Shown here one piece after another: positions 11,226-44,514 of a stretch of DNA of 64,000 nt (its first letter is position 1; each line of letters opens with the position of its first letter). The position numbers and the translations under genes were made by a program. Source of the DNA: Candidatus Omnitrophota bacterium (GTDB lineage Bacteria; Omnitrophota; Gorgyraeia; Gorgyraeales; Gorgyraeaceae); contig JAUSEX010000040.1 of the NCBI GenBank assembly GCA_030649895.1, positions 16,839 to 80,838 of the forward strand. The letters run 5' to 3'. Below the pieces are notes generated by a model, which saw only the letters and a program-made list of their open reading frames with translations, did no database searches and was not told the DNA's origin.

Positions 11226-11249
11226 TGTCTTCAAATTAAAGGTTTACAG

Positions 11250-11284
11250 CCCCGCATTCCCGAAAAGGGATGCGGGGTTTTTTA
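11250..11284 (+). terminator. Rho-independent terminator
   Basis: CCCCGCATTCCCG-AAAA-GGGATGCGGGG followed by TTTTTT. Confidence 0.75.
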
Positions 11285-11300
11285 ATGAGCCTGCCTGAAA

Positions 11301-11333
11301 GTGGGCATATCTACTTGCAAATATAGCAAGTAG
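11301..11333 (+). promoter_or_regulatory. Promoter TTGCAA-N17-TATAAT overlapped by the inverted repeat CTACTTGC-N7-GCAAGTAG (candidate operator)
   Basis: The hexamers and spacing are seen directly. The 8-bp perfect IR spans the -35 and spacer. ATG of the GspK-like gene lies 21 nt downstream with no clear SD. Confidence 0.5.
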
Positions 11334-11353
11334 TTTGTATAATAAAATACAAT

Positions 11354-14300
11354 ATGAATAGCGCGAGAGAAGAAAAAGGCATTGCGTTGATACTTGTGGT
11401 AAGCGTCCTGGCTGTCGCAAGCATAATGGCGATATCTTTTGCATTTACCATGAGGCTGGAATTGAAAGCCGCAGCCAATTATCTGGAAGCTACAAGGGCG
11501 TCTTATCTCGCGCAGTCAGGCATCACGTACGCGCAGCAGATTCTAAAAGAAGACTCGAGGGATATAGATAGCTTCGAAGACAAATGGCACACTATCTTTA
11601 CAGGCAGCGATATTGATAACGATGGAGACGGCCAGCCTGATTCAAAATGGATAAATATTTACAATGAGGAAAGCGAGGCCATAGGCAGGTATGCTGTCCT
11701 GGTGAGGGATGAAACCAGTTTTATGGATATAAATATAGCTTATAAGCACAATCTTTCGCTTTTAAAGGTTACGGAAGGCTGGACTCCATATGAGCTGGAC
11801 CTGCAAAAATTTATAAATTCTTCAGGCTTGAAAGATCCAGATAAGGTGTACGAAGATATCGTTAGTTTTAGGTATGGGTCTGATGGCCAGCCGGGCGAGA
11901 TGGGCGCGGACGATAACCAGAATCAAAGGATCCTGGATTCCGATGGCATCGATAATAACTCGAACGGCATCATAGATGAAGCGAGCGAAGGCGTGGATGA
12001 GCCGATGGAATACGAACCGTTTAATCTTCACGGGGACGACAAAGCATTCGAAACGCCTTTCGAAATAAGTAAAATTAAATCGATCGCAAAACAGGAGCTT
12101 TATAAATTGTATCCCTATATAACTACGTATTCGGTTGATAAGAATATAGATGTTCAGGGAAGGTTGAAGGATAATATTAATTCCATGGATAGCCAGACTC
12201 TTGCTGTATTGTTGGAAGACGCCGGCGTAAGCGACCCGTTTCAAAAAGCAGTTAATATTATAGACGCTTGTGACGATGATTTCAGCCAGAGTACCGTACC
12301 AAAATTATACAACAGGCTCGCAGTGATCAATAGAGGCGATACAGGAGACTGGATATGGAAAGGCAGCTGCTATCAGAGCGACGTAAAAGATGGGCAACCT
12401 TTTACGATTACCTGGATCAATCTTCCGGAAGGAGAATATTACATAGGCGTGTTTGGGATAAAAAATGAATTAGTGGGAGATGTTACTGTAAACGGCATGA
12501 CCCAGAATTATGTGAGGGATGGCGAGCTGCTGAGGATAGGGGCTGTCTCGTTTGAGAATAAAATCTTAAATCTTTCCATAAATAACAGCGCAGGGTCGGT
12601 TTGTTATTTTTCTTATCTTGAATTATATCCCAGGCTGGGCCAGCAGAATTTCAACTCGAGCGAGATAAGAGGCGTTGAAGGCATAAGGATAAATGAAATA
12701 ATGGTAAGGCCTGTTATTTCCAGAAGCACTTTTAGCAACCAGGCACCTGGCGGAGACTGGACATGGCAAAATGCATACTATCAGAATAGTCAGCCAAAGG
12801 GCGGAAAAACCGGGGAAGGCGAATGGACCTGGAAGGATGTTCCCAATGGCAAATATTACGCCAGGTTATTTGCGGGCGTAGCCGATCAGGAGATAGGAAA
12901 TGTTGAAATAGGGGGCGTTCATTCGGAAGGGATGAGAGACGGAGATTTGTTTGGCAGCGGAAAAGTTGTTACTGTCTCAGGCGGGAAATTTACTATTAGG
13001 ATTCAGAATCAAAGAGAAACAGGATCTACGTATTTTAAATCTGTAGATTTGAGCCAGCAACCTGACGGAGAATATATAGAGCTTATAAATCTCACTCCCA
13101 GGGACGTGAATCTGAGCGGCTGGACCGTAGAAGGCCCGAGCAAAGAAGGCTGGCCTGCTACTATCCCTCTTGGTACGACAATAGGCCCTCACGAGCACAT
13201 TGCGCTGGCTATTGATAAAGACGATACACAGTCAGGGATAAATAATAACGGTATTTCATTTACATCGATATGGGGTAAAGAAAAATCCACAACTTTGCAT
13301 TTTTTAAGGGTGATAAGCCCTAATTCCGATCTTCTGTCTGACGTTGCTTTTATGGGAGGGAATTTTATAGCGCTTAAAGAACCCATGGGCCATGTCGTGG
13401 ATAAGCAGGAATATTTTAGCGGCAATGCAGCTGATTATAAGGCATTGGAGAAATCAGACCCTAGCTATGTATTGGATTCAAATAATAACGGCATACCTGA
13501 CAACTGGTATGCGTCTACCGCGAAAAAAGGAGCGACGCCCGGCCTGCCTAATGATAATGACGGGATGAGAGAGAAGATAGGAGAAGAGATAATAGAGCAT
13601 TACGATACCGAGGTGAACGCAAAGAACAAGAATTTTTCTTCGATAGGAGAGATTTCATTTGTTTCGCTTGGAACTGAACCATGGAAGAGCATAGCTCCGC
13701 AGGATGTCGCGAAGATTGCGGACAGGCTTACCGTATTCGGGATAAAACTGGAAGCGGAAAATAAAATCGTGAAAGGTTCCGAAGGAAACTGGAAAGTTGT
13801 GCAGAGGGCAGCTCCCTTGACAGACTGGTGCGAAAATGGAAAAGAGGATTCGATCGGCATGTGGAGATGGGAGGCGAAGGATGGCTTGGAAAACGGCTAT
13901 TATAAATTGAAAATATTCGGGGAAGAAGGCGAGGCAATAGCCATATCAATACATCTCGCGGACGATACATGGACGAGTTTTACGCCGGCCCTCACCCCTG
14001 GGCCTGACAAAGGAATAAATTTTGGTAATATAGAAATAGGCACTGGTAGTTCTATAGCTACGCCGAGCGGGGTCCTGGAAATAAAAATAAAGAACAGTTC
14101 GGAGACAGGCGCCGCTCACTTTGATTTTATAAGCTTGGACCCAGTAAATAACCTATACGGCAGGATAAATGTAAATACAGCCTCTAAAAGAGTTTTAGCT
14201 ATTCTACCAGGTATAGATGACGCCATAGCGGATAATATAATTAATAACAGGGTTTTTGGGAATAAAAATAGCCTTTATCTTGGCATAGGCGATCTTATCA

Positions 14301-14470
14301 CCACCCAGGCGTTAGGCTCAACTGATGTGGATAAGAAAAATAGGTTCAGGCAGATTTCGAATCTTATCACAGTCCATTCCGATTGTTATAGGATTATTGT
14401 CACGGGCCAGGCTCTTGAAAAAGGGAAGGTCCTGGCTGAAAAGAAGATCTGGGTGGTGTTTGAGCGTTAA
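11354..14470 (+). CDS. Giant GspK/PilX-like minor pseudopilin with adhesin-like inserts
   Basis: N-terminus GIALILVVSVLAVASIMAISFAF...RLELKAAANYLEATRASYLAQSGI and C-terminus INVNTASKRVLAILPGIDDAIADNII (HhH pair) match the T2SS GspK family. Between them about 800 aa contain DxDxDG Ca-binding-like loops (DIDNDGDGQPD, DSDGIDNNSNG), three GDW(I/T)W...GEYY beta-sandwich-like repeats (nt ~12336-13980) and a lamin-tail-domain-like segment EYIELINLTPRDVNLSGWTVEG (nt ~13069-13230). Confidence 0.6.
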   Translation: MNSAREEKGIALILVVSVLAVASIMAISFAFTMRLELKAAANYLEATRASYLAQSGITYAQQILKEDSRDIDSFEDKWHTIFTGSDIDNDGDGQPDSKWINIYNEESEAIGRYAVLVRDETSFMDINIAYKHNLSLLKVTEGWTPYELDLQKFINSSGLKDPDKVYEDIVSFRYGSDGQPGEMGADDNQNQRILDSDGIDNNSNGIIDEASEGVDEPMEYEPFNLHGDDKAFETPFEISKIKSIAKQELYKLYPYITTYSVDKNIDVQGRLKDNINSMDSQTLAVLLEDAGVSDPFQKAVNIIDACDDDFSQSTVPKLYNRLAVINRGDTGDWIWKGSCYQSDVKDGQPFTITWINLPEGEYYIGVFGIKNELVGDVTVNGMTQNYVRDGELLRIGAVSFENKILNLSINNSAGSVCYFSYLELYPRLGQQNFNSSEIRGVEGIRINEIMVRPVISRSTFSNQAPGGDWTWQNAYYQNSQPKGGKTGEGEWTWKDVPNGKYYARLFAGVADQEIGNVEIGGVHSEGMRDGDLFGSGKVVTVSGGKFTIRIQNQRETGSTYFKSVDLSQQPDGEYIELINLTPRDVNLSGWTVEGPSKEGWPATIPLGTTIGPHEHIALAIDKDDTQSGINNNGISFTSIWGKEKSTTLHFLRVISPNSDLLSDVAFMGGNFIALKEPMGHVVDKQEYFSGNAADYKALEKSDPSYVLDSNNNGIPDNWYASTAKKGATPGLPNDNDGMREKIGEEIIEHYDTEVNAKNKNFSSIGEISFVSLGTEPWKSIAPQDVAKIADRLTVFGIKLEAENKIVKGSEGNWKVVQRAAPLTDWCENGKEDSIGMWRWEAKDGLENGYYKLKIFGEEGEAIAISIHLADDTWTSFTPALTPGPDKGINFGNIEIGTGSSIATPSGVLEIKIKNSSETGAAHFDFISLDPVNNLYGRINVNTASKRVLAILPGIDDAIADNIINNRVFGNKNSLYLGIGDLITTQALGSTDVDKKNRFRQISNLITVHSDCYRIIVTGQALEKGKVLAEKKIWVVFER

Positions 14471-14681: not shown

Positions 14682-16493
14682 ATGCATAGGATTGAATATA
14701 ATAAAAAATATTTTATTCCAAAGACCGTTTTATTTTTTACAGCGGTCTTTTTTATTTTAGCGGTTGGGATCGCGGCTGCGAGCATAGCTAGCAGTAAAAA
14801 TTATAAATTGCATACAGCCCTGGCAGACGGCGGAGGGGCAAGCGGGGTTTCAAAGAATTACAACTCGGAGAATAGCGTGGGTTACCCGTTAGGCACCAAT
14901 GTTGCTACGGGCGTCAGTTATAAAATATACGGCGGATGGCTTTCCACCAGAAACACCATTCCTGACGTAGGCATATTAACATATAACGATGGCCAGGCTA
15001 CATTTGAAAATCCTCTTACATTGAAATGGGCGGTTACAGATAAAGACAATGATCCTCAGCGTTACTATCAGGTCCAGATCTCTAAAGACAGTTTTGAAAC
15101 AATAGATTTTGATTCAGGTATTGTTAAGACCAATTCCCAGCAATACACCACGCCTATATTGCCCACCACCGAAGGCTATGTAGACTATAAGTGGCGCGTG
15201 AGGGTAAGCGATGGATATGATTATTCAGGATGGGAAACAGCCAGTAGCGGGTTTAAGCTCGCAACGGGAACAATGGATCTGCCTATTATATTGGCTAAGA
15301 CTTCGCCTGGTGGAAGCGATATCCCGTCAAAATTATGGCAGGGATGCGGAGATCCATACATGTCATGGGAATACCCTGTAAAAGGCGTTCAACCTGCTGG
15401 TTACAGTTATGCGTGGGGAGATATGCCGGATAACCAGGCTGATACTCAGGGCACTTCTTACCAGACCCCTTCCGATCTTTTGGGGGATGGCGTCAGGGTG
15501 TTTAATCTTAAGGCTGAGAATTCAGCGGGTAATTGGGGTGAAATAGCTTCTTATGAATTATGGATAGATAGAGGCAGCCCTGTTATAGGTAATTATTCTC
15601 CGGAAAAAGGTTCGCTAATAGCGTCCGATAGGCCTACTATTACCATAGCTGCCAGCGATGATAAAAGCGGTGTGGATCCAAACGCTATTAATATGAAGAT
15701 AAATAAATCCACAGTAGGCGCTGCATATGATGAGAATAGCCAGAGCATTGTATATCTTCCATCTACGCCTCTCAGCGAAGGCAGTAATGTAGTGTCTATT
15801 GAAGTGGCTGACCTTGTGGGCAATAAAACATCCCAGGTTGTCTGGAGTTTTACTGTTGACACAAGGGGCCCGACAGGTTATGTGATAATAAATAACCAGG
15901 ATGCTGTTACTAATTCCGTATATGTCAACCTTGTATTTGGCGCCAGCGACTCTACGACAGATGTGGCAGATATGGTAATCTCGAACGACGGGGTTTTTGA
16001 CAATGAGCAATGGGAGCAGTTTAAAACCAAGAAGGAAAACTGGACGCTGACTCCTATAAGCGGTACCCGCAAGGTTTATGTAAAGTTTAAGGACACGGCA
16101 GGAAATGAATCAGAGGTTTTTAGCGATACGATAGAACTTATAATAATAGCGCCCGATACCATAATCACAAGCGGGCCGAGTTTGTTGACAAAGTCGAAAG
16201 AGGCCCTGTTTACTTTTAAAAGCAGCGTAGAGAATTGTGTATTTAGATGGAAATTTGATGATGATGAATGGTCTGCCTGGTCCAAGGATATTGCCGTATC
16301 CAAAAAAGACCTGAAAAACGGGAATCATTATTTCAAGGTTCAGGCTGCAAAAGATGTTAATAAGAATTCCAAAATAGACATAGACGAAATAGACCCTGTT
16401 CCTGCGGAAAGAACCTGGACCATAAGCGAAACAGGGGTTATAAAGCCGGAACCTGAGAAAAAGAAGCCTTTCAAATTTTGGAAAGAAGAATAA
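14682..16493 (+). CDS. Membrane-anchored surface protein with tandem Ig-like/FN3-like domains
   Basis: N-terminal TM (VLFFTAVFFILAVGIAAASIA) followed by several beta-sandwich segments typical of bacterial Ig-like domains (e.g. ITIAASDDKSGVD...VVSIEVADLVGN...); lies between the GspK-like gene and the pil genes. Confidence 0.5.
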   Translation: MHRIEYNKKYFIPKTVLFFTAVFFILAVGIAAASIASSKNYKLHTALADGGGASGVSKNYNSENSVGYPLGTNVATGVSYKIYGGWLSTRNTIPDVGILTYNDGQATFENPLTLKWAVTDKDNDPQRYYQVQISKDSFETIDFDSGIVKTNSQQYTTPILPTTEGYVDYKWRVRVSDGYDYSGWETASSGFKLATGTMDLPIILAKTSPGGSDIPSKLWQGCGDPYMSWEYPVKGVQPAGYSYAWGDMPDNQADTQGTSYQTPSDLLGDGVRVFNLKAENSAGNWGEIASYELWIDRGSPVIGNYSPEKGSLIASDRPTITIAASDDKSGVDPNAINMKINKSTVGAAYDENSQSIVYLPSTPLSEGSNVVSIEVADLVGNKTSQVVWSFTVDTRGPTGYVIINNQDAVTNSVYVNLVFGASDSTTDVADMVISNDGVFDNEQWEQFKTKKENWTLTPISGTRKVYVKFKDTAGNESEVFSDTIELIIIAPDTIITSGPSLLTKSKEALFTFKSSVENCVFRWKFDDDEWSAWSKDIAVSKKDLKNGNHYFKVQAAKDVNKNSKIDIDEIDPVPAERTWTISETGVIKPEPEKKKPFKFWKEE

Positions 16494-16930: not shown

Positions 16931-18457
16931 ATGGCCAAGTTCAAGGCAAGTTCAATAGCCTTAGATATAGGCGCTCATTTTATAAAGCTTGTTGAGCTTA
17001 AAAAAGAGAAGGATAGTATTGTGCTGACCAAAATCGGCTTAAAAGAAATCCCGAGAGATTTGAAGCTCGACAGGGATAAAACTATCAGTTCGCTTATCTC
17101 CGCATTATTATTGGAGAATCATATAAAGCCGAATCCTGTAAACATATCTATAAGCGGCCAGTCTGTTTTTGTAAGATTCGTAAAGTTGTTGCAGGTAAAA
17201 GAGGATAAATTAAAACAGACTATGAAATTTGAAGCGCAAAACCAGATACCTTTCAGCATGAATGAGGTCATGTGGGACTGGTCTCTGCTGGATAACGACA
17301 AAAATTCATCCAGAAAGGCAGTCATAGTTGCGATAAAAAAAAATCTGGTAGAAGAGATTATTTCAAAACTCAATTCCGTTAAATTATCTGCCGGGTTGAT
17401 AGATGTGGCTCCTATAAGCGTGTATAACTGTATGATATTTAACGAAGACTTTAATGTCCAGGGGTTGGGAGCCATACTTGACATAGGCGCGAAATCCACC
17501 AATTTCATTATATTTAATAAAGGTAATATATGGATAAGAAGTTTTCCTATAGCTGGAGAGAGGATCGAGGAGGCTAAAGAGCATGGCGTAGAGGAGCTTC
17601 TGGCAGAGGTGGAGAGATCCCTGGAGTATTATTTTATGCAGGCAGGAGAAGACGCCCCGCAGGAAAAAAAGATAACCCAGCTTTTCCTGACAGGCGGCGG
17701 AAGCGTTATGGAAAATATAGAAGCATCGCTTGTTTCTAAATTTAGCGTAAAACCTCAGATTATGGATCCTTTTAGAAAATTAAGGGTATCTAAAGATGTA
17801 TATCAAAAACTCCAGGTATGCGGACCTAAGAATCAATTTTCTACGGTTGTGGGCGTGGCGCTGAGGGGCATGACTGGTCTGAAGATAGAGGTAAATTTTC
17901 TGAAAGAAATAGCTTTGGAAAAGAAATCCTCGTTCCGGAAACGTTTTTATGCTGGCCTTTCAATGGCCACAGGCGCGCTGGTGCTTATAAGCTTTTCCAT
18001 TTTTATGCGCCAGGATTACTATATAAAAAAGATCAAGCTTGATAAAGCGGAAGACATGATAGGGATATACAGGACCTATGAGCCGAAGATAAAGAATATA
18101 CAGGAAGAGGAAAATATTTTAAGAGGGGAAATAGATACCTTATATCAAACAGCCTTTTCCAGGGCTATATGGCTCGGGATATTTAAGGCTATTTCAGAGA
18201 TACTCCCCAAGGATGTCTGGGTTACGGATTTATCGGGAATCATCTCTATAGAAAAGAGCGGGCTTGGGAGAATGGATATGAACGGGAAAGCTCTGTCTTA
18301 TCAATCAGTTAATAATTTCGTGTCGAGCCTTAAGGCGTTGCCGAGCTTTAGCGATGTGCGGCCTGTATCGTCTTCCGTGGAAAACGACAAAGATACAGGG
18401 GAAGAAATAGTTAAATTCAGCATCACCATGGATGTTGTTTTATTGACGAATCAGTAG
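16931..18457 (+). CDS. pilMN: Type IV pilus assembly protein PilM-PilN fusion
   Basis: N-terminal actin-like ATPase fold of PilM (ALDIGAHFIKLVELKK...), a central TM helix (AGLSMATGALVLISFSIFM), then a PilN-like periplasmic region; 508 aa. Confidence 0.6.
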   Translation: MAKFKASSIALDIGAHFIKLVELKKEKDSIVLTKIGLKEIPRDLKLDRDKTISSLISALLLENHIKPNPVNISISGQSVFVRFVKLLQVKEDKLKQTMKFEAQNQIPFSMNEVMWDWSLLDNDKNSSRKAVIVAIKKNLVEEIISKLNSVKLSAGLIDVAPISVYNCMIFNEDFNVQGLGAILDIGAKSTNFIIFNKGNIWIRSFPIAGERIEEAKEHGVEELLAEVERSLEYYFMQAGEDAPQEKKITQLFLTGGGSVMENIEASLVSKFSVKPQIMDPFRKLRVSKDVYQKLQVCGPKNQFSTVVGVALRGMTGLKIEVNFLKEIALEKKSSFRKRFYAGLSMATGALVLISFSIFMRQDYYIKKIKLDKAEDMIGIYRTYEPKIKNIQEEENILRGEIDTLYQTAFSRAIWLGIFKAISEILPKDVWVTDLSGIISIEKSGLGRMDMNGKALSYQSVNNFVSSLKALPSFSDVRPVSSSVENDKDTGEEIVKFSITMDVVLLTNQ

Positions 18458-18497: not shown

Positions 18498-19259
18498 ATG
18501 TTAAAACCCGGCAGAGAAAAAATTATTCTGAAACAGGGGCTTATAATACTTGCTGTTTTGGCGGGTATTTATATATTTTTCCTTAGCCCGTTTCTTAAGG
18601 AAGGCCGCTCAATAATGGACGAAGAGCTGGAGCGAAAGATAAGCGAAATGAAAAGATTTATTACGCTTACCGGGACAGTGCCTTCAAAGGAAAGCTTTAC
18701 CAGGATGGAGAAGGACAGAGAGTCCCTGGAAGAAAAATTTTCCAGCCTGGTGAATTTTATAGATCCGAATAAGGCGAGGTTTTCTGAAAAAAATACGGAG
18801 GCAGGGCTTTATTTTATAGAAAAACTTCATTCTACGATGAAAAAATTCGAAATAGACGCAGGGTCCAAAACCGTGAAGCTTCCAGAGAACCTTGGTTTTG
18901 GGGATGGCCTTCCAAAGGACGCCATAGTGCCTGTGCTTCTGAGGCAGCTTGAGATAGTGGAGTTTACCGTAGACGCGCTTTTAAAAAGCAATAGCTCGGA
19001 TATTTATAATCTGAAACCGCTTAAGCCTATTGAATACATAGAGCCTATTTCAAAGAAACTTTTTTATACTGAACTGCCTATCCAGATTTCCATAAAAACA
19101 ACAACTGACGCGTTTACGAATCTTTTGCTGGAGCTTAAGAACGCCAGCCCAGTAATCAACGTAAAAGAATTGCATGTTAAGAGCGTCGAACCTGGTTCAG
19201 GAGAATTGGAGATAAGCCTGGTATTAAGCAGCCTTATGGTCACGAGGAAAGAGAAATGA
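18498..19259 (+). CDS. pilO: PilO/GspM-like pilus assembly protein
   Basis: Single N-terminal TM, coiled coil, then a ferredoxin-like periplasmic region; placement after pilMN. Confidence 0.45.
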   Translation: MLKPGREKIILKQGLIILAVLAGIYIFFLSPFLKEGRSIMDEELERKISEMKRFITLTGTVPSKESFTRMEKDRESLEEKFSSLVNFIDPNKARFSEKNTEAGLYFIEKLHSTMKKFEIDAGSKTVKLPENLGFGDGLPKDAIVPVLLRQLEIVEFTVDALLKSNSSDIYNLKPLKPIEYIEPISKKLFYTELPIQISIKTTTDAFTNLLLELKNASPVINVKELHVKSVEPGSGELEISLVLSSLMVTRKEK

Positions 19260-19864
19260 TTATAAAGGAAAAAATTATATTCCTGGCTCTTTTACCTGTG
19301 TTAGTAGCCACCATAGCGATAGGCATCAATACGCAGGAAAATAAAAAGAGATCAACGGACGAGTTTCTAAAGGATATTGAATCCGTGACAGAAAAGGCCA
19401 AGGCCAAAAAAAAGGTGGCCAAGGATAGTTGGGATATTGACGGGTTGAAGAAGCAGGAAACAATGGAGGATTATCTGGCCCTTGCGGAAAGAAATATCTT
19501 CTTCAGGCCTGTTTCTGAAGTCAGAAAGGAAATCCAGAGGGATATCGTGTCTTTAAAGGAAGAAGAGCCGAAGAAACCTTTGTTTGTCTATAAAGGCAGG
19601 ATGACGATGGGGGCCAGGATTATAGTTATTATAGAGGATCAGAATACAAGCAAAAGTTTCTCCGTTAAAGAAGGGGATTCAGCGGGCGATTTTACAGTCG
19701 TCAGCATAGGCGAAAAAGAAATATTGCTCAGGAAAAACGACGGAGAAGAAATTATTATTTCTACTGTCAAGGAAGAGAAAAAAGAAGAAAGGAAAGATGC
19801 TGAGGGTGGTCGTGATCGCTCCATGCAGACAGATTGGTCAGAGGGCATAGATGAAAAGAAATAA
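19256..19864 (+). CDS. pilP: PilP-like lipoprotein/pilotin-type component
   Basis: N-terminal TM/signal, a low-complexity linker and a C-terminal beta domain (GDSAGDFTVVSIGEKEILLRKNDGEEIII) resembling PilP; overlaps both neighbours. Confidence 0.4.
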   Translation: MIIKEKIIFLALLPVLVATIAIGINTQENKKRSTDEFLKDIESVTEKAKAKKKVAKDSWDIDGLKKQETMEDYLALAERNIFFRPVSEVRKEIQRDIVSLKEEEPKKPLFVYKGRMTMGARIIVIIEDQNTSKSFSVKEGDSAGDFTVVSIGEKEILLRKNDGEEIIISTVKEEKKEERKDAEGGRDRSMQTDWSEGIDEKK

Positions 19865-22346
19865 GGGATTCTACTGTGTATCATTTATAATGGCTGTATT
19901 CATGGCGCTGGAGTGCCTGCCTTCCGTGGTTTTTGCGTCAGTGGACCCTTCTCTCTCAAGGACTGTTGTTGCGTCAAAGGTCAACCTTAGGAAATATTTT
20001 GAAGAGGCTATGTCCATGTTTGAATCAGGCAAATACAGGGAAGCTATTATGATATTTGAGAAATTGATTGAAACAGAGAAAGATGATAACCAATCGTATT
20101 TTACGCCTTTCGCGGAGATTTATATTGAAAAATCCAAAGCCCGCATGACAGAGTTGATGATCATGGAAGAAAAGAAATGGGAAAAGATGAAAAAAGACGT
20201 GGTGGGAGAGGCAGAGGCCCTGGCCAGGAAAGAAAGCGATAGGATCGTTCAGGAAGAGCAAGAAAAGAAAAGGGCGCTATTGGATTCAAGGAAAAAAGAA
20301 GTGTATGAAAAAGAGCAGAATATAAAGTCTACGTTTGACAAGGCAGTGGCATTTTACAAGTCCAAGGATTATCCTTTCAGTATAGTGGAGTTCAAGAAGG
20401 TAAAAGAGATGGATCCCGGCAGTCTGCTTGCCAGCCAGGCAGATTCTTATATACGCAATATGCAGCAGGAAATAAAGAAAAATCAGGAGAAGGTGCTTCT
20501 TGTGAAGATGGAAGAGGCAAGGCGCGCCAAGCTGGACATGGAAAGGGAAGCAGAACTCAATAGAGTAGAGCTGGCCAGAAAAGAAAAACAAAAAGAGGCG
20601 CTCAGGATGATGTTTGAGCGCAGGTTAAAGATCAAAGAAGCCAGGGACAGAGTGGCCAAGCTGGCGGATTCGATGGACAGCATAATAGGCAATATCAGGG
20701 AAAAAAGATTTGACGCGGCAGAGGCCCTGGTGGATAACGCAATGCAGGAATTTCCTGAAAATGAAAAATTTAAAGAGATATTGCATTATATAGATATGCA
20801 GAAACTGAAAGCCGAAGAGATTGCACTGAAGAAAGCCCGGGAGCTGACAGAAGAAAGGATGATGCTGGATGTTGCGAGAAAACATATACTGCCGGAAGAA
20901 AAAACAGCTAAGCTGGAAAACGAAAAAAAAATAAAGCCTATCATAAAAATCCCTGAGATAAGGAAGCGGTTAAAAATACCCATAAGCGTTGATTTTAAAG
21001 ACGTGGAGCTGGATTATGTTCTGGGTTTCCTGTCGGATACGACAGGTGTGAACATAGTGCCTTCAACGGAAATAGATATGGCTGATAAAAAAGTGAGCAT
21101 GAGGATAAAAGACATGCCTCTCGAAGAGGCGTTGAGGTATATATTGAAATCCCAGGACCTGGTTTACAGGATAGAAGAAGACGCTGTATGGGTGGCTACA
21201 AAGGATGAGATCTCTAACGAAAAGATAGACACGAGGGTATATTTTTTAAGCCAGGGCATAGGCAGATTTGCTGAGTTCGCGACCCAGTCTTCATCAATCG
21301 GGGAGACGGGAGAGAGCAAATCCAGCCCCGCTGCCTCTTCAGAAGTAAAGACTGTTAAAGATATCCTGGATAATGCGGTTGAATGGCCTAAGGACTCAAA
21401 ATTGACGCTTGATGAACGCACCGGCGCGCTTATAATAAGCAACACGCCGTCAAACCTGGAAACCATAGAGAATCTTTTATATAATCTGGATATAACTCCC
21501 ATGCAGGTTTTGATTGAGGCCAGATTTTTGGAAGTCAAGGTGAGCGACCTGGACGATATAGGGGTTGAGTGGAAACTGAATGGCATATGGGCTATGGATA
21601 AAAACAGGGCTGGAAATGATGTATATGGGGTTAGCCAAAATAGCGGGGTGGATTTTTCGAATTTCAGCCGCTCAGACGAAGGGTTTAACCTTACGTATCA
21701 GGGCATATTGAGTAATCCGCAGTTTCAGGCAGCGATGCACGCGCTTCAGGAAAAGCAGAATGTAAAAACATTATCCGCGCCAAGGATAACCACTCTTAAC
21801 AATCAGACAGCCACGATAGAAATAGTTGACGAATATATATATCCTACGAGATATGAAGCGAGTCTTGTCCAGTACGACATAAACGGGGATGGGGATTTCA
21901 ATGACGCCGGAGAGACGGAATGGGTGAACGTGCCGCAAGATTTTGTGACGAGAAACGTGGGTATACTTTTGCATGTTAAACCAAGCGTGGGAGCGGACAA
22001 AAAGAGCATCACGCTTGCGTTAACCCCTGAAGTCAGCGAAGACGCTGGGACTTTCACGTATTCTGGAAATGTCAGTATACCTAATTTTACTACCAGGAAC
22101 CTGAGCACAAGCGTAATGGTTAAAGATGGCGAGACAATAGTGCTTGGCGGGCTTATAAAAGAGACGAATACAACTGTGAAGACAAAGGTTCCGGTGCTTG
22201 GCAATATACCTTTTGTAGGCGGATTATTCAGAAAGAACACTGATTCCAAAGAAAGAAGGAATCTTTTAATATTCGTTACCGCCACTATTACAAACAAAGA
22301 AGAGAATAAAGTCGCAAGCGTTGAGACCCTGGAAGAGGGTTTTTAA
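19851..22346 (+). CDS. pilQ: Secretin (PilQ/GspD family) with a ~400-aa N-terminal coiled-coil/TPR-like extension
   Basis: Signal peptide; long K/E-rich helical region; secretin N-domain (IPISVDFKDVELDYVLGFLSD...); C-terminal secretin core (VLIEARFLEVKVSDLDDIGVEW ... TIVLGGLIKE ... VPVLGNIPFVGGLFRK ... RNLLIFVTATI). Confidence 0.75.
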   Translation: MKRNKGFYCVSFIMAVFMALECLPSVVFASVDPSLSRTVVASKVNLRKYFEEAMSMFESGKYREAIMIFEKLIETEKDDNQSYFTPFAEIYIEKSKARMTELMIMEEKKWEKMKKDVVGEAEALARKESDRIVQEEQEKKRALLDSRKKEVYEKEQNIKSTFDKAVAFYKSKDYPFSIVEFKKVKEMDPGSLLASQADSYIRNMQQEIKKNQEKVLLVKMEEARRAKLDMEREAELNRVELARKEKQKEALRMMFERRLKIKEARDRVAKLADSMDSIIGNIREKRFDAAEALVDNAMQEFPENEKFKEILHYIDMQKLKAEEIALKKARELTEERMMLDVARKHILPEEKTAKLENEKKIKPIIKIPEIRKRLKIPISVDFKDVELDYVLGFLSDTTGVNIVPSTEIDMADKKVSMRIKDMPLEEALRYILKSQDLVYRIEEDAVWVATKDEISNEKIDTRVYFLSQGIGRFAEFATQSSSIGETGESKSSPAASSEVKTVKDILDNAVEWPKDSKLTLDERTGALIISNTPSNLETIENLLYNLDITPMQVLIEARFLEVKVSDLDDIGVEWKLNGIWAMDKNRAGNDVYGVSQNSGVDFSNFSRSDEGFNLTYQGILSNPQFQAAMHALQEKQNVKTLSAPRITTLNNQTATIEIVDEYIYPTRYEASLVQYDINGDGDFNDAGETEWVNVPQDFVTRNVGILLHVKPSVGADKKSITLALTPEVSEDAGTFTYSGNVSIPNFTTRNLSTSVMVKDGETIVLGGLIKETNTTVKTKVPVLGNIPFVGGLFRKNTDSKERRNLLIFVTATITNKEENKVASVETLEEGF

Positions 22347-22355
22347 AACAGTAAA

Positions 22356-23864
22356 ATGGCCATGAATTTTATGATACGTATATTGTTATGCATAGTCTTA
22401 TTTTTAAGCCCCGGAGCTTGTTTTGCTTATGAGATGAAGTCTGTCAAGGGAGACAGCAGCGTCACCAGCGATAAGTCTAGCATTGTAGAAATCCCTGAGA
22501 TAAGAAAAAAGCTCAAGACGCCAATAACAGTGGACTTTATGGATGTGGGCCTTGACTATGTCATGGATTTTTTATCAGAGGCCACAGACGTTAATATAAT
22601 ACCAGGCAGCGGGGTAAAGCTTTCAGAAAAAAAGGTTACCATGAAGGTTAAAGATATGCCTCTGGAGAGCCTTTTGAAATATATATTCAGAAATCAGGGG
22701 CTTATATACAGGATTGAGAAAAATGCCGTATGGGTGGATACGATAGATAACATGGATAATGAAACTTCTGAGACCAGGATGTATTTTTTGGATCAGGGCC
22801 TTGCCATGTTCACGGAATTCAGCGGCGGCTCAGGCGAAGGAGGCGCTGCTATATCAAAAATAAAAACCATAAAGGACATACTTGAAAATGCGGTAGTATG
22901 GCCTTCTGATTCTAAGATCAACCTGGATGAACGCACCAGCGCTTTGATAGTGACAAATACGCCGTCCAATCTTAAGATTATAGAAGACATATTATATAAT
23001 CTGGATATCGATGCTACTCAGATCCTGGTGGAAGCGAGATTTGTTGAGGTAAACATCACTGACCTCAGCGAGTTAGGGGTGAATCTATCGTTGGACGGCC
23101 CGTGGGCCATAAATAAACAAGAAGTCAGCGGCACTGAAAATGGCGCGATTACTCAGGTAGGCTCGTCAAGCGGTTCAAGATTTTCAACATTTACAGGTTC
23201 GCCGGACGAAGGGCTGAACCTTACATATCAAGGTATATTGACAAGGCCGCAGTTTTCCGTAGTGCTGCACGCGCTTGATAAAAAGACAAATATAAAAACG
23301 CTTTCCGCTCCAAAAATAACTACATTGAATAATCAGACCGCTACCATAGAGATAGCCGATGAGTTTGTGTATCCTACGCGATATGAGCCGACCCTTGTAA
23401 AAGAGGATTTGAACGGAGACGAAGATTTTCTGGATACTGTAAATGGCGTCAAAGAGACTCGTTTTGTGAACGTGCCCCAGGGTTTTCAAACAAGGCCTAT
23501 CGGGATTTTATTGCATGTAACCCCGAGCGCTGGCAAAGATAAGGAGACGATAACATTAACCCTTAACCCTGAAGTCAGCGAGGCTACAGCCGATGCATTT
23601 CAATATAGCGGAGAAGTTAAGCTACCTAAATTTACCACCAGGAACCTCAGCACTAATATAGCTGTGCAAAACGGGGATACCGTGGTCCTGGGAGGGCTCA
23701 TAAAAGAATCAAGGACAAACACAAGGACAAAGGTGCCTTTTTTAGGGGACATACCTATATTGGGCATGCTTTTTAAGAAGGATTCGGACGGCACGACAAG
23801 AAAAAATCTTTTGATATTTGTCACAGCTACTATCTTGAGCCCGGAAGGAGAGAAGTTAAAATGA
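22356..23864 (+). CDS. Second secretin paralog (PilQ/GspD family), no N-terminal extension
   Basis: Signal peptide and secretin N-domain alignable with the first secretin (IPEIRKKLKTPITVDFMDVGLDYVMDFLSE vs IPEIRKRLKIPISVDFKDVELDYVLGFLSD), then the secretin core (ILVEARFVEVNITDLSELGV ... VVLGGLIKE ... VPFLGDIPILGMLFKK). Confidence 0.75.
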   Translation: MAMNFMIRILLCIVLFLSPGACFAYEMKSVKGDSSVTSDKSSIVEIPEIRKKLKTPITVDFMDVGLDYVMDFLSEATDVNIIPGSGVKLSEKKVTMKVKDMPLESLLKYIFRNQGLIYRIEKNAVWVDTIDNMDNETSETRMYFLDQGLAMFTEFSGGSGEGGAAISKIKTIKDILENAVVWPSDSKINLDERTSALIVTNTPSNLKIIEDILYNLDIDATQILVEARFVEVNITDLSELGVNLSLDGPWAINKQEVSGTENGAITQVGSSSGSRFSTFTGSPDEGLNLTYQGILTRPQFSVVLHALDKKTNIKTLSAPKITTLNNQTATIEIADEFVYPTRYEPTLVKEDLNGDEDFLDTVNGVKETRFVNVPQGFQTRPIGILLHVTPSAGKDKETITLTLNPEVSEATADAFQYSGEVKLPKFTTRNLSTNIAVQNGDTVVLGGLIKESRTNTRTKVPFLGDIPILGMLFKKDSDGTTRKNLLIFVTATILSPEGEKLK

Positions 23865-24862
23865 GCATAAAAAATATTAAAGACGTGGCAAGGGAAGCCG
23901 GCGTGTCAATAGCTACTGTCTCAAGAGTTGTAAATAAATTAGGGTCTGTAAAAAAATATAACAAGGATAAGGTGGAGCTGGCTATTAAGAAATTAAAATT
24001 CAGGCCCAATATGAGCGCCCAGCGCCTTGCGTCAAAACATAACAATAATATAATAGGCCTTGTCATACCCAGATACACTGATATATTTCATTCGTTTTAC
24101 GCTCTTCAGATATTGCAGGGCGTAGGGGTTGAGGTGGAACGCATGAAGATGGACTTGTTGCTGCACGTTACCAACGGAAGCTCGTTTTTAAATATCTCCA
24201 GCGTGGAGGGAGTGATATTTTCTGATATTATAGGCAATGAGGATCAGGTAGATGGGGTGATCGAGGCAGGGCTTCCATGCGTTATAATGAATTATGACAC
24301 CAAAGATCTTCCTGTAACATGTATATCAATAGACAATTTTAACGCAGCCAGCAACGCGATTAATTATCTTGTAAAATTAGGGCATTCCAGGATAGCTACT
24401 ATTACAGGCGCCCTGAAGACGCAAGTGGCGATAGACAGGTTAAATGGTTATTTGACAGCGCTGGAAAAAAATAAGATCGATAAGAAAAAGGATTATATAA
24501 AATACGGAGATTTCGGAAGAGAATCCGCGCGGACCCTGACAAAGGATCTTATAAAGATGAAGTGCCCGCCTACCGCGATATTTGCCGCGAGCGATGAGAT
24601 GGCGGTAGGGGCTATGCAGGTATGTTTGGAAAACGGCGTCAGCGTGCCGGGAGATATGTCAATTATAGGATTTGACGATAACCCGCTGGCGCTGAGTTAC
24701 AGCCCTTTGCCTCTTACGACCATAAGACAGCCTTTGCATAAAATGGCCTTGATTGCCACGCAGACGCTTAACCAGATTATCCAGAAAAAAATAAGATCTA
24801 ATAAAAGAATTGTGCTCTCTACGGAGCTGGTGGAAAGAAGTTCCTGCCGGGCGTTGGCTTGA
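23861..24862 (+). CDS. LacI-family transcriptional regulator
   Basis: N-terminal HTH IKDVAREAGVSIATVSRVVNK plus a periplasmic-binding-protein-like sugar-binding fold; 333 aa. Confidence 0.75.
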   Translation: MSIKNIKDVAREAGVSIATVSRVVNKLGSVKKYNKDKVELAIKKLKFRPNMSAQRLASKHNNNIIGLVIPRYTDIFHSFYALQILQGVGVEVERMKMDLLLHVTNGSSFLNISSVEGVIFSDIIGNEDQVDGVIEAGLPCVIMNYDTKDLPVTCISIDNFNAASNAINYLVKLGHSRIATITGALKTQVAIDRLNGYLTALEKNKIDKKKDYIKYGDFGRESARTLTKDLIKMKCPPTAIFAASDEMAVGAMQVCLENGVSVPGDMSIIGFDDNPLALSYSPLPLTTIRQPLHKMALIATQTLNQIIQKKIRSNKRIVLSTELVERSSCRALA

Positions 24863-24918
24863 TAATAATCGCGGAACCACGCGGAAGCCATGCTTAAATT
24901 TCGCATGGTTTCGCGATT
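24863..24918. repeat. Family C repeat (copy 1 of 2): TAATAATCGCGGAACCACGCGGAAGCC...TTTCGCGATT hairpin, terminator-like
   Basis: Begins at the lacI stop (TGA) TAATAATCGCGG. Arms AATCGCGGAACCA/TGGTTTCGCGATT. The 26-nt 5' half is nearly identical to 51766-51791. Confidence 0.6.
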
Positions 24919-24934
24919 GACAAAAGGGGCAATT

Positions 24935-25177
24935 ATGTTAAAAAAGGCTTTTATGTTTTTTATAGGATTTCTATGCGCTTGGATTATTTTTTCGATGGGA
25001 ATAAAAAAAGGCGTATGTCAGGTAAACACGCCGTCTAATATTTATTTTTCCGGGGATAGCACTAATATCTATTTTTTTGACAAGGACGAATTTAAGATAT
25101 ATAAGTACAATACGCAAGGCAAACTAACCCGCACCTATACAGTCAAAGAATTAGGAAAAGACTTTCTGTTGAAATAA
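24935..25177 (+). CDS. Small hypothetical membrane protein
   Basis: AAAAGGGG SD then ATG; one TM (FMFFIGFLCAWIIFSMG). The ORF-track start at 24890 lies inside the family C repeat and is probably an artefact. Confidence 0.3.
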   Translation: MLKKAFMFFIGFLCAWIIFSMGIKKGVCQVNTPSNIYFSGDSTNIYFFDKDEFKIYKYNTQGKLTRTYTVKELGKDFLLK

Positions 25178-25178
25178 C

Positions 25179-26450
25179 GTGTTTCATTTACTCGTATCAG
25201 ATAAATCAGGCAAGATATTCGATATTCCAGAGCTGGAAGCCGCAGGGATGAAGGCAGGTCATTTTTTCAAGCCCGACAGAGAAGAATTTATTAAACTTCC
25301 GGAAGCCAGCAAACTTTTTATGCTGCCTGAAAGAATACCTGTGGGATACGATAGTATTAGCGGAAAATGCAGGGCGCTGGAAAATTATTTTGCGGTAGCC
25401 GCGTTTATAGCGCCGGGATTTACAGGCACTTATAGCGCTGCTCATGAACTTATCCGACTCCGTGAGTCGCCGTACGGCGACTCACGGAGTCGGAATAAGG
25501 CGCTCCCGCTTTTCTGTTACACCGCAGCTGGTTTTTATAAAGGGGATATCTATGTTGCTGCAGTCAGGGTAGACAGGTCAAGCAGGCATGATCCGAGACT
25601 CATAAATATCAAACTCGTAGCTAAAAATATAATAAAAATAAAAAAGTTATTTCCCGCTAACAGGCTTATCAGGCATCTAGAAGGCTGCGCTATGATCCAT
25701 GGCTGTCCAGGCGCGCAGAATTTTTTCTTATCAAGAGAGGAATGCCCTTTACCCGTATCTCCTTCCTGCAACGCAAGCTGCGCAGGATGTATCTCATTAA
25801 AGACGCAGCCAAGGATAAAATTTACGCCTTCTCCGGAAGAAATAGCAGAGACAGCTTTATTTTATATTCGTAATGTTACAGCAGGGGGCGGTCGCAACCG
25901 CCCCCTGCTTAGTTTCGGCCAGGGATGCGAAGGCGAACCTTTGATGGAGGCTGATTTAATTGAAAAATCAATAAGGTTGATCAGAGGCAAAACCGATAAG
26001 GGCGCTATAAATATCAATACAAACGCCTCTAGGCATGAGGCGATAGCCAGGCTGTTTGATGCGGGGCTGGATAGCATCAGGGTCAGCATGAATAGCGCCA
26101 GGAAAGAATATTACGAAAGGTATTATAAACCCAGGGGGTATGGTTTTGAGGATGTATTATCGTCTATAAGAATAGCTAAACAGAAAAAAGGTTTTGTGTC
26201 AATTAATTATTTAACTATGCCTGGGTTTACGGATTCTGAGGATGAATTTGCAGCGTTTAAGAAATTTATAGAGGCTTACAGGATAGATATGATCCAATGG
26301 CGCAACCTGAATTTTGACCCTCTTCATTACTTTAAGATCATGAAATACTATGGCCGGCCTTCTGCCATGATAGGCGTCAGGCAATTGATAGTCTCCCTGA
26401 AAAAATCTTTCCCCGCCCTCAAGATGGGCTACTATAACCCGTTTTTATAA
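25179..26450 (+). CDS. Radical SAM domain protein carrying an in-frame palindromic repeat insertion
   Basis: CxxxCxxC motif (SPSCNASCAGCISL) and a TIM-barrel-like downstream region. The family A palindrome at 25453-25494 is read in-frame as IRLRESPYGDSRSRN. Confidence 0.6.
   Translation: MFHLLVSDKSGKIFDIPELEAAGMKAGHFFKPDREEFIKLPEASKLFMLPERIPVGYDSISGKCRALENYFAVAAFIAPGFTGTYSAAHELIRLRESPYGDSRSRNKALPLFCYTAAGFYKGDIYVAAVRVDRSSRHDPRLINIKLVAKNIIKIKKLFPANRLIRHLEGCAMIHGCPGAQNFFLSREECPLPVSPSCNASCAGCISLKTQPRIKFTPSPEEIAETALFYIRNVTAGGGRNRPLLSFGQGCEGEPLMEADLIEKSIRLIRGKTDKGAININTNASRHEAIARLFDAGLDSIRVSMNSARKEYYERYYKPRGYGFEDVLSSIRIAKQKKGFVSINYLTMPGFTDSEDEFAAFKKFIEAYRIDMIQWRNLNFDPLHYFKIMKYYGRPSAMIGVRQLIVSLKKSFPALKMGYYNPFL
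25449..25498. repeat. Family A palindromic element (copy 1 of 4), inside a CDS
   Basis: 42-nt perfect palindrome TCCGACTCCGTGAGTCGCCG-TA-CGGCGACTCACGGAGTCGGA with TTAT/ATAA flanks. Confidence 0.85.
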
Positions 26451-43433: not shown

Positions 43434-43445
43434 GAGGGAGAAATT

Positions 43446-44495: not shown

Positions 44496-44514
44496 TAAAT
44501 AGGAGGAGCTAGTC

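What the first reader, a model, noticed from the sequence alone, without database searches (positions are those of the whole stretch)
19851..23864. Two tandem paralogous secretins, the first with a ~400-aa coiled-coil/TPR N-terminal extension
The adjacent genes 19851-22346 and 22356-23864 each encode a signal peptide, a secretin N-domain and a C-terminal secretin core. Their N-domains align residue for residue (IPEIRK(R/K)LK-PI(S/T)VDF-DV-LDYV--FLS), so this is a tandem duplication. Only the first carries a long K/E-rich helical extension. Possibilities are a hetero-oligomeric channel, two channels for different substrates (pilus vs secreted effector), or one copy acting as an outer cap. Tandem secretin pairs within one pil operon are unusual.
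Basis: seen in the sequence. Interest (0 to 1): 0.55.

Follow-up and report, generated by a model that had tools for sequence, protein, structure and literature searches.

The report
Conserved long/short tandem secretin pair
An uncultured Omnitrophota bacterium encodes, at the end of a pilus-assembly operon, two adjacent copies of the outer-membrane pore protein secretin, one with a long helical arm and one without; relatives always keep both, which hints at a pore built from two different subunits, something not described for bacteria.

Summary
ORFs 19851-22346 (831 aa, "SecL") and 22356-23864 (502 aa, "SecS") are 57% identical over 468 aa, covering the N0, N1 and secretin domains. Outgroup secretins reach 32% at most.

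The window is a Candidatus Omnitrophota MAG. In all 47 related loci that could be assessed, the long and short genes sit in the same order. In most fully resolved loci they overlap by 4 nt or lie 1-4 nt apart. The pair also persists in one lineage where it is detached from pilMNOP.

Both copies are under strong purifying selection (dN/dS 0.04-0.11). In the main clade they form two separate groups (bootstrap 99 and 100 of 100).

The extension is about 330 aa, not 400. It consists of two clearly homologous TPR-like modules, plus a possible third, separated by 64-86-residue charged helices. It is ancestral, not added: five outgroup loci, including Akkermansia-type Amuc_1098 clusters, carry one long secretin, four of them with Pfam TPR hits. 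The short copy is therefore a duplicate that lost the arm.

The function is inferred, not shown. The most likely reading is that both are pore subunits of one type IV filament machine, probably co-assembling. Two separate pores remain a serious rival. This is a new variant of a known kind.

The parts
11248..11343 (+). Likely operon boundary: a terminator-like hairpin (11248-11279) followed by a promoter-like site (11315-11343), just upstream of the first gene of the cluster.
   Evidence: Consensus scan: 13-bp stem with 8 GC pairs plus a T-run; TTGCAA-17-TATAAT. This is a pattern match only.
11354..14470 (+). GspK-like giant minor pseudopilin (1038 aa) with a lamin-tail domain.
   Evidence: NCBIfam T2SS_GspK N-terminus, E=1e-17. 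Pfam LTD, HHH_3 and T2SSK. N-terminus KGIALILVVSVLAV. Conserved in synteny.
14682..16493 (+). 603-aa protein with Ig-like domains and an N-terminal hydrophobic helix. Conserved member of the cluster.
   Evidence: Pfam Big_13 and Ig_Rha78A_N. Orthologues lie in the same position in related loci.
16931..18457 (+). PilM-PilN fusion protein (508 aa).
   Evidence: Pfam PilM_2 at 8e-32 and PilN at 4e-10. NCBIfam Amuc_1101_fam at 5e-68, below cutoff.
18498..19259 (+). PilO/GspM-like protein (253 aa).
   Evidence: Weak Pfam PilO and T2SSM_b hits. NCBIfam GspM and Amuc_1100_fam hits are weak. Position is conserved.
19256..19864 (+). PilP/GspC-like protein (202 aa). Its C-terminal beta-rich segment resembles the HR domain that binds secretin N0.
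   Evidence: NCBIfam GspC_delta at 1.6e-5, below cutoff. Sequence read. Position is conserved. The HR assignment is an inference.
19851..22346 (+). SecL: the long secretin, 831 aa. Signal peptide, ~330-aa TPR/charged-helix extension, N0 (STN), N1 (Secretin_N) and secretin core.
   Evidence: 100% identical to NCBI MAG protein Q7O04_05135. Orthologues are 57-87% identical across Omnitrophota.
19938..20939 (+). N-terminal extension of SecL (aa 30-363). TPR-like modules lie at aa ~43-100, ~155-210 and, more weakly, ~279-320. They are separated by long K/E-rich helices (H85-170, H220-283, H306-345).
   Evidence: AF2 model, pLDDT 80. hhalign of module 1 against module 2 gives E=1e-12. TPR matches. 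Only weak fold matches to BamD and other TPR proteins, TM 0.14. dN/dS 0.09-0.18.
20946..22292 (+). Part of SecL shared with SecS: N0 (aa ~366-456), N1 (aa ~498-552) and secretin domain (Pfam aa 631-814).
22356..23864 (+). SecS: the short secretin, 502 aa. Signal peptide (aa 1-24), N0 (aa ~45-135), N1 (aa ~171-222) and secretin core (Pfam aa 306-494). No extension and no lipobox.
   Evidence: AF2 model. Best PDB fold match is V. cholerae competence-pilus PilQ 6W6M, E=2.5e-20. Orthologues are 66-89% identical.
22347..22355 (+). 9-nt spacer between the SecL stop codon and the SecS start codon. No terminator-like site lies between the genes.
   Evidence: In most fully resolved related loci the two genes overlap by 4 nt or are 1-4 nt apart; the full range is -11 to +177 nt.
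23861..24862 (+). LacI-family regulator. Its start codon overlaps the SecS stop codon (ATGA). It follows the pair in most pair-bearing loci, including the L026 and L052-L059 divergent groups; no LacI was found next to the pair in L024 or L025.
   Evidence: Pfam LacI and Peripla_BP_3. Synteny.

Best explanation
SecL and SecS are the two products of an old tandem duplication of a PVC/Omnitrophota-type secretin. That ancestor had a TPR-like N-terminal arm followed by N0, N1 and the secretin core. The downstream copy lost the arm.

Both copies are functional pore-forming subunits. They are transcribed together, and probably translationally coupled, at the end of a gspK-like / pilMN / pilO / pilP-like operon. 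Both keep the same N0 entry segment (PEIRKxLxxPIxVDF), so both can dock on the same inner-membrane platform.

I think they serve one type IV filament machine as a two-subunit outer-membrane conduit, most likely a mixed (hetero-oligomeric) secretin ring in which only the SecL protomers carry periplasmic TPR/long-helix arms. Those arms would act in scaffolding, spacing or assembly, as pilotins or BamD do.

Shown: paralogy, conservation of the pair, purifying selection on both copies, domain anatomy, and the ancestral state of the long form. Inferred: co-assembly and the role of the arm.
For: Paralogy:
- 57% identity over N0, N1 and core.

The pair is the conserved unit:
- 25 of 25 assessable genome loci and 22 of 22 assessable metagenome loci have long followed by short in the same order.
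- In most fully resolved loci the genes overlap by 4 nt or lie 1-4 nt apart.
- In L024 the pair stays together although its neighbours are an ABC-transporter cluster rather than pilMNOP.

Both copies are constrained alike:
- Mean identity between orthologues is 0.77 for SecL and 0.75 for SecS, while within-genome paralogue identity is 0.50-0.57.
- dN/dS is 0.04-0.10 for SecL and 0.05-0.11 for SecS.
- The two orthogroups have bootstrap support of 99 and 100 out of 100.

Operon structure:
- No terminator-like site lies between the two genes, and the operon holds a single PilMN, PilO and PilP-like gene set.

The long form is ancestral and sufficient on its own:
- Single long secretins close the homologous operons of P0078, P0085, P0090, P0088 and P0081. 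Pfam TPR hits were recorded on all but P0081.
- Akkermansia PilQ is an outer-membrane protein with an N-terminal three-TPR BamD-like domain (PMC4960237).

General knowledge (my inference): co-expressed paralogues of a homo-oligomeric ring protein co-assemble by default unless they evolve insulation against each other.
Against: - There is no direct evidence of physical interaction. The tools give no multimer prediction.
- A residual rate-correlation test gave r=0.42 for SecL core versus SecS. That is only third of 28 gene pairs and below an unrelated pair (LacI-PilO, 0.60), so it is not distinctive.
- 40 sites are fixed differently in the two orthogroups. This pattern would also fit insulation into two separate homomeric rings.
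- Relatives manage with a homomeric long secretin, some with much longer arms (1033-1632 aa). Steric thinning of the arms is therefore not required.
- Deep phylogeny is unresolved. The L026 long and short copies group together (96 of 100), and P0078 groups weakly with SecS (60 of 100). A single origin of the pair is therefore likely, on the basis of the largely shared SecL-SecS-LacI synteny, but not proven.
Confidence: 0.45

Rival explanations
1. Two separate homo-oligomeric pores. SecL (with arms) and SecS (without) each form their own ring and serve different tasks or substrates, for example pilus extrusion versus DNA uptake or protein export. They share the operon only for co-regulation.
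For: - Every characterised bacterial secretin is described as an oligomer of a single polypeptide (review PMC10128026).
- 40 orthogroup-specific fixed differences are spread over N0, N1 and the core.
- The paralogues differ in loop lengths in the secretin domain.
- The rate-covariation signal is not distinctive.
- Omnitrophota genomes are reported to encode several type IV filament systems, T4aP and Tad (PMC10066038).
Against: - The pair never separates in 47 of 47 loci, and it stays together even when detached from pilMNOP.
- The genes are tightly spaced or overlapping, which suggests fixed co-production.
- Only one PilMN, PilO and PilP-like set accompanies the pair.
- The N0 entry segment that should dock on the platform is conserved in both copies.
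Confidence: 0.35
2. SecL is mainly an assembly or scaffolding factor for SecS, in effect a secretin-derived pilotin. Its TPR arm chaperones or anchors the SecS ring, and its own barrel contributes little.
For: - The TPR arm gives weak matches to BamD (NCBIfam OM_YfiO; Foldseek 5efr and 3qky at E~3e-3).
- Ottman et al. likened the Akkermansia PilQ N-domain to pilotins (PMC4960237).
- No separate pilotin gene was seen in the operon.
Against: - The SecL secretin core is at least as conserved as that of SecS (dN/dS 0.04-0.10; Pfam 143 bits).
- In outgroups the long form is the only secretin and so must itself be the pore.
- SecL has no lipobox, whereas pilotins are lipoproteins.
- The fold matches are generic TPR matches with TM ~0.14.
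Confidence: 0.1
3. One copy is redundant or decaying, a recent duplicate on its way to loss.
For: One related locus (L018) has SecL split into two ORFs.
Against: - The split is a single-base frameshift in a linker. The downstream sequence is fully conserved, so it is most likely an assembly error or a very recent event.
- Both copies are kept in every assessable locus across lineages down to 43-53% identity.
- dN/dS is about 0.05-0.1 for both.
- The two orthogroups are old and distinct.
Confidence: 0.03

Closest known systems
Akkermansia muciniphila PilQ / Amuc_1098 family (cluster Amuc_1098-1102)
   Same: - SecL shares the architecture: an N-terminal TPR (BamD-like) region followed by a secretin.
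- It shares the operon logic: PilM-like (Amuc_1101), an Amuc_1100-like protein, one more protein, then the secretin last.
- Amuc_1098_fam is the top NCBIfam hit for both SecL and SecS.
- Related operons are seen in L028, L029 and L031.
- The TPR N-domain and outer-membrane location of Amuc_1098 were shown by Ottman 2016.
   Different: - Scores are far below the equivalog cutoff (215 and 223 bits against 750).
- Identity is about 26-27%.
- Akkermansia-type loci have one secretin, whereas here there is a second, arm-less paralogue.
- The Omnitrophota arm is built of TPR-like modules alternating with very long charged helices.
Type IVa pilus secretin PilQ (e.g. V. cholerae competence-pilus PilQ, PDB 6W6M)
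   Same: - The N0 - one N-domain - secretin layout is shared.
- 6W6M is the only solved secretin whose sequence match to SecS runs from N0 to the C-terminus (SecS 52-493).
- 6W6M is the best Foldseek hit for the SecS model, E=2.5e-20.
- The partners are PilM, PilN, PilO and a PilP-like protein.
   Different: - There are no AMIN domains.
- The TIGR02515 scores (194 and 192 bits) are below the cutoff of 284.
- The minor pseudopilin in the operon is GspK-like, i.e. T2SS-type.
- PilQ systems have a single secretin gene.
Mitochondrial T2SS-derived system (miT2SS) with GspD and its paralogue GspDL
   Same: This is the only case I found in which a secretin pore is proposed to be built from more than one secretin-type polypeptide (review PMC10128026).
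   Different: - It is eukaryotic and organellar.
- Its proteins are truncated to the C-domain, with the N-domains encoded separately.
- There is no tandem operon arrangement.
- Co-assembly is unproven there as well.
TPR pilotins and assembly lipoproteins (PilF/PilW/Tgl, TadD, BamD) acting on secretins
   Same: A TPR-containing periplasmic element is associated with secretin biogenesis. The SecL arm gives weak BamD and TPR matches.
   Different: - Those are separate outer-membrane lipoproteins with compact TPR superhelices.
- The SecL arm is fused N-terminal to N0 and is not lipidated.
- It is interrupted by 64-86-residue helices.
- TM-scores to solved TPR proteins are ~0.14.

Membership tests
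Secretin superfamily (Pfam PF00263) | C-terminal secretin domain scoring above the Pfam gathering threshold. | tested here: met
   SecL scores 143.4 bits and SecS 141.2 bits against a cutoff of 27.5. Both cover profile positions 1-168 of 169.
Secretin superfamily | Periplasmic N0 (STN) domain plus a KH-like N-domain upstream of the core. | tested here: met
   SecL: STN 31.1 bits (cutoff 28.4) and Secretin_N 28.6 bits (cutoff 28.2). SecL is above the cutoff for both; SecS is below it for both, with STN at 22.5 and Secretin_N at 21.7 bits. SecS nevertheless aligns residue for residue with SecL, and its AF2 model shows N0 at 48-134 and N1 at 172-216.
Secretin superfamily | Formation of 12-15-mer, detergent-resistant outer-membrane rings. 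| not testable with these tools
   Needs biochemistry, cryo-EM or multimer modelling.
T4aP secretin PilQ (NCBIfam TIGR02515) | Score above the family cutoff. | tested here: not met
   194.2 and 191.5 bits against a cutoff of 284.35.
T4aP secretin PilQ | N-terminal AMIN domain(s) in the classical proteobacterial form. | tested here: not met
   No AMIN hit in either protein. SecL has a TPR/helical arm instead, and SecS has nothing before N0.
T4aP secretin PilQ | Encoded with pilM, pilN, pilO and pilP. | tested here: met
   A PilM-PilN fusion, a PilO-like and a PilP/GspC-like gene lie directly upstream. The latter two hits are weak.
T2SS secretin GspD (NCBIfam TIGR02517) | Score above cutoff, an N0-N1-N2-N3 array and a C-terminal S-domain. 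| tested here: not met
   203 and 210 bits against a cutoff of 351. Only one N-domain lies between N0 and the core, and the proteins end a few residues after the core.
Amuc_1098 family (NCBIfam NF042912, equivalog) | Score above the equivalog cutoff. | tested here: not met
   215 and 223 bits against a cutoff of 750. It is still the best-scoring NCBIfam family for both proteins.
Amuc_1098 family | N-terminal TPR region fused to the secretin, as the last gene after the PilM-like and Amuc_1100-like genes. | tested here: met
   Met for SecL and not for SecS, which lacks the arm. Homologous single-secretin operons appear.
Pilotin-type TPR lipoproteins (PilF/PilW/Tgl/BamD) | Lipobox with a conserved Cys and a compact TPR superhelix. 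| tested here: not met
   The consensus of the SecL orthologue signal region has no conserved Cys, only a conserved FASVD cleavage-type site. In SecS the signal-peptide Cys is not conserved either. Foldseek TM is 0.14 to BamD.
Hetero-oligomeric ring of paralogous subunits (concept) | Physical co-assembly of both paralogues in one ring. | not testable with these tools
   Support is indirect only: strict co-occurrence and tight gene spacing. The rate-covariation test was inconclusive.

The most novel reading that the evidence does not exclude
The Omnitrophota pair forms an obligate hetero-oligomeric secretin ring, the first heteromeric bacterial secretin. Arm-bearing SecL and arm-less SecS protomers would alternate or mix at a fixed ratio. 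The number of periplasmic TPR/long-helix arms per pore would then be set genetically by a duplication that became entrenched.
Probability: 0.35. Interest if true: 0.8.

Novelty: new variant of a known kind. Interest (0 to 1): 0.55.

Why it matters
Secretins are the outer-membrane gates of type II and type III secretion, type IV pili and filamentous phage export. They are treated as rings of a single polypeptide.

A lineage in which two diverged secretin paralogues are always encoded side by side, both under strong constraint, provides a natural test of two questions. Can a secretin ring be heteromeric? And what do N-terminal TPR arms, shared with the abundant Akkermansia PilQ, contribute?

Omnitrophota are ultra-small, probably host-dependent bacteria in which pili and secretion are thought to be central to their lifestyle. 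The design of their outer-membrane conduit therefore bears on how they attach to or attack partners.

If the two proteins simply form two separate pores, the finding is a modest comparative-genomics note.

Tried and rejected
1. Lipoprotein ("liposecretin") idea for SecS. The Cys in its signal peptide is not conserved, while a signal-peptidase-I-type site (F/Y)A|YE is. Rejected.

2. Pseudogene idea. The only broken copy (L018) has a 1-nt frameshift with intact downstream sequence, and dN/dS is low for both genes. Rejected.

3. Rate-covariation (mirror-tree residuals) across 14 genomes and 8 protein segments. SecL core versus SecS gave r=0.42, third of 28 pairs and below LacI-PilO (0.60). Inconclusive.

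5. Homology searches with the arm alone. The word-indexed search returned only fragments. The exhaustive phmmer search gave 45 hits: SecL orthologues, variable-length TPR-secretin fusions (899-1632 aa) and generic TPR proteins. No informative stand-alone homologue was found.

6. Timing of the duplication. The NJ bootstrap resolves the two main orthogroups but not the divergent lineages or P0078.

7. Mapping the D-x-N-G-D-G-D-F loop onto a solved secretin gate. A sub-sequence search of the PDB found nothing.

8. A linker-fused AF2 "dimer". Not attempted, because the tool returns no inter-chain confidence and would model any two secretin protomers side by side.

9. Literature. Five searches on this question found no report of tandem or heteromeric bacterial secretins or of Omnitrophota secretins. 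The library lacks most subscription papers.
Full report
**What is there.**

On the + strand, ORF 19851-22346 encodes an 831-aa protein (SecL). After a 9-nt spacer, ORF 22356-23864 encodes a 502-aa protein (SecS).

BLASTP aligns SecL 364-821 with SecS 43-501 at 57% identity and 74% positives, E=0. Both proteins carry Pfam STN (N0), Secretin_N and Secretin domains. The Secretin domain scores 143 and 141 bits against a cutoff of 27.5.

The paralogy therefore covers all periplasmic and membrane domains, not only the generic core. Secretins from outside this group are 23-32% identical. The one correction is that the extension is ~330 aa, not ~400.

**Source and context.**

SecL is 100% identical to a protein of a Candidatus Omnitrophota MAG, on a contig of 104,598 bp. 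The two secretins end a co-oriented cluster:
- a GspK-like giant minor pseudopilin (11354-14470);
- a 603-aa Ig-domain protein (14682-16493);
- a PilM-PilN fusion (16931-18457);
- a PilO/GspM-like protein (18498-19259);
- a PilP/GspC-like protein (19256-19864);
- SecL and SecS;
- a LacI-family regulator whose start codon overlaps the SecS stop codon.

A terminator-like hairpin and a promoter-like site precede the cluster, and no terminator-like site separates SecL from SecS. These are consensus matches only. No pilin, ATPase or platform gene lies in the window; the rest is housekeeping.

**Is the pair conserved?**

Both proteins have many orthologues in Omnitrophota: SecL at 57-87% identity and 815-900 aa, SecS at 66-89% and ~500 aa. 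Adjacent NCBI locus tags link them in several MAGs.

I fetched 26 loci from species-representative genomes and 31 from metagenomes and annotated them with my own ORF and BLASTP script. Wherever the contig reaches far enough, a long secretin is followed directly by a short one. This holds for 25 of 25 genome loci and 22 of 22 metagenome loci, with some overlap between the two collections. In most fully resolved loci the genes overlap by 4 nt or are separated by 1-4 nt; the full range is -11 to +177 nt.

The result includes divergent lineages at 43-53% identity (L024-L026, L052-L059). In L024 the pair stays together although its neighbours are an ABC-transporter cluster, not pilMNOP. The pair itself is therefore the conserved unit.

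**Are both copies functional?**

- Over the shared region, orthologues are on average 77% (SecL) and 75% (SecS) identical, while paralogues within a genome are 50-57% identical.
- Nei-Gojobori dN/dS across ten genome pairs is 0.04-0.10 for the SecL core, 0.05-0.11 for SecS and 0.09-0.18 for the arm.
- Forty aligned sites are fixed differently in the two orthogroups.
- In an NJ tree the main-clade SecL and SecS groups are supported by 99 and 100 of 100 bootstraps.
- The single split SecL (L018) results from a 1-nt frameshift in a linker, with intact sequence downstream.

**Which form is ancestral?**

Five more distant loci have a single long secretin at the end of a PilM / Amuc_1100-like / x / secretin operon. 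These are P0078 (1033 aa, Omnitrophota-like), P0085, P0090, P0088 and P0081. Pfam TPR hits were recorded on four of the five secretins, all but P0081. None has a second secretin.

Akkermansia PilQ (Amuc_1098) was described in 2016 as an abundant outer-membrane secretin with an N-terminal BamD-like domain of three TPRs (PMC4960237). Amuc_1098_fam is the best NCBIfam match for both proteins here, though far below its cutoff.

At the 40 switch sites, the single secretin P0078 has the SecL state 18 times and the SecS state 12 times. The most economical scenario is a tandem duplication of a long TPR-secretin, followed by loss of the arm in the downstream copy. The SecL-SecS-LacI order, shared by most pair-bearing groups (the main clade, L026 and L052-L059, though no LacI was found beside L024 or L025), argues for one origin. 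The deep nodes are unresolved, however: the L026 long and short copies group together at 96 of 100, and P0078 groups with SecS at 60 of 100.

**Anatomy of the arm.**

An AF2 model of residues 1-380, built with 40 aligned sequences and reaching pLDDT 80, is entirely helical. It contains short helix pairs alternating with very long helices: H85-170, H220-283 and H306-345.

Profile comparison shows that aa ~43-100 and ~155-210 are homologous TPR-like modules (E=1e-12). A third module at ~279-320 is weak. P0078 carries four or five such modules. Other relatives have arms that bring the protein to 899-1632 aa.

Fold search finds only generic TPR proteins, with BamD on top, at TM ~0.14. SecL lacks a lipobox.

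**Anatomy of the shared part.**

The SecS model (pLDDT 64) shows N0 at 48-134, one KH-like N-domain at 172-216 and the secretin domain at 222-493. The best solved relative is the V. cholerae competence-pilus PilQ 6W6M, both by sequence (match covering SecS 52-493) and by fold (E=2.5e-20).

The proteins are PilQ-like in layout. They fall below the PilQ, GspD and Amuc_1098 family cutoffs, and they lack AMIN domains and an S-domain.

**How it most likely works.**

Shown: two constrained, co-located secretin paralogues; one platform gene set; a conserved N0 entry segment in both.

Inferred: both are pore subunits of one type IV filament machine. Co-expressed paralogues of a ring protein co-assemble unless insulated from each other, and the pair never separates. 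I therefore favour a mixed ring in which only SecL protomers carry arms (confidence 0.45).

The main rival is two separate homomeric pores (0.35). It fits the single-polypeptide paradigm (PMC10128026) and the 40 switch sites. A pilotin-like role for SecL (0.10) is weakened by its fully conserved core and by outgroups in which the long form is the only secretin. Decay of one copy (0.03) is contradicted.

My rate-covariation test could not discriminate between these readings, and no multimer prediction was available.

**Novelty.**

TPR-secretins and PilQ-like operons are known. A strictly conserved long/short tandem secretin pair is not mentioned in the Omnitrophota papers I read or in my other searches on this question. 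The only multi-paralogue secretin proposal I found is the mitochondrial GspD/GspDL system. I rate this a new variant of a known kind, with interest 0.55.

Noticed in passing
window 1829-9436 (+): A giant ORF of 2535 aa with an N-terminal hydrophobic segment. Pfam gives only weak hits (glycogen phosphorylase-like, GGDEF). It lies ~2 kb upstream of the pilus/secretion cluster. A 2026 preprint reports that Omnitrophota giant proteins are typically flanked by T2SS/T4P genes.
   Followed up: partly
window 23861-24862 (+); related loci L001-L023, L026, L032-L059: A LacI-family regulator gene starts inside the SecS stop codon (ATGA). It follows the secretin pair in most pair-bearing loci, including the L026 and L052-L059 divergent groups (46-49% identity) but not L024 or L025. 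It is absent next to the single secretin of P0078. What a sugar-type repressor does at the end of a pilus operon is unexplained.
   Followed up: partly
window SecL aa 676-688 (21876-21914) and SecS aa 351-361 (23406-23438): A conserved acidic loop: DINGDGDF(D/N)DAGE in SecL and DLNGD(G/E)DFLDT in SecS. It resembles DxNxDGxxD calcium-binding loops. It sits at the tip of the first long beta-hairpin of the secretin domain in the AF2 model and is an insertion relative to XcpQ (alignment). It is nearly invariant in SecL orthologues and 4 aa longer in SecS.
   Followed up: partly
whole window 1-64000: All ORFs that were assigned a function lie on the + strand. GC skew is positive in every 2-kb bin (0.10-0.26), so the cumulative skew rises monotonically. 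This indicates extreme co-orientation of genes with one replication arm.
   Followed up: no
window 16931-18457 (+): PilM and PilN are fused into one 508-aa protein (PilM_2 at aa 11-212, PilN at aa 417-501). The fusion is conserved in all related loci and in the Akkermansia-type Amuc_1101 family.
   Followed up: no
window 11354-14470 (+): The GspK-like minor pseudopilin is unusually large (1038 aa). It contains a lamin-tail domain and has a weak N-terminal match to Verru_Chthon cassette protein A.
   Followed up: no
L018 8853-8991: In one related MAG, SecL is split into 497-aa and 383-aa ORFs by a single-base frameshift at the GRFA|EF linker. The downstream sequence is intact, so this is probably an assembly error.
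   Followed up: yes
window 42930-46983 (+): A UVR-motif protein, an ATP:guanido phosphotransferase and a ClpC-type AAA+ protein lie in a row. This resembles the McsA-McsB-ClpC protein-arginine-kinase module that I know mainly from Firmicutes.
   Followed up: no
window 24890-26450 (+): A small 95-aa membrane-anchored ORF and a radical-SAM enzyme follow the LacI gene. Both are conserved in synteny in the closer relatives. Their function is unknown.
   Followed up: no
L026 15-3737; L024/L025: In L026 the long and short secretins group with each other (96 of 100 bootstraps) rather than with the SecL and SecS orthogroups, although they are only 51% identical. This could reflect an independent duplication, old gene conversion or a tree artefact. 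It is unresolved.
   Followed up: partly
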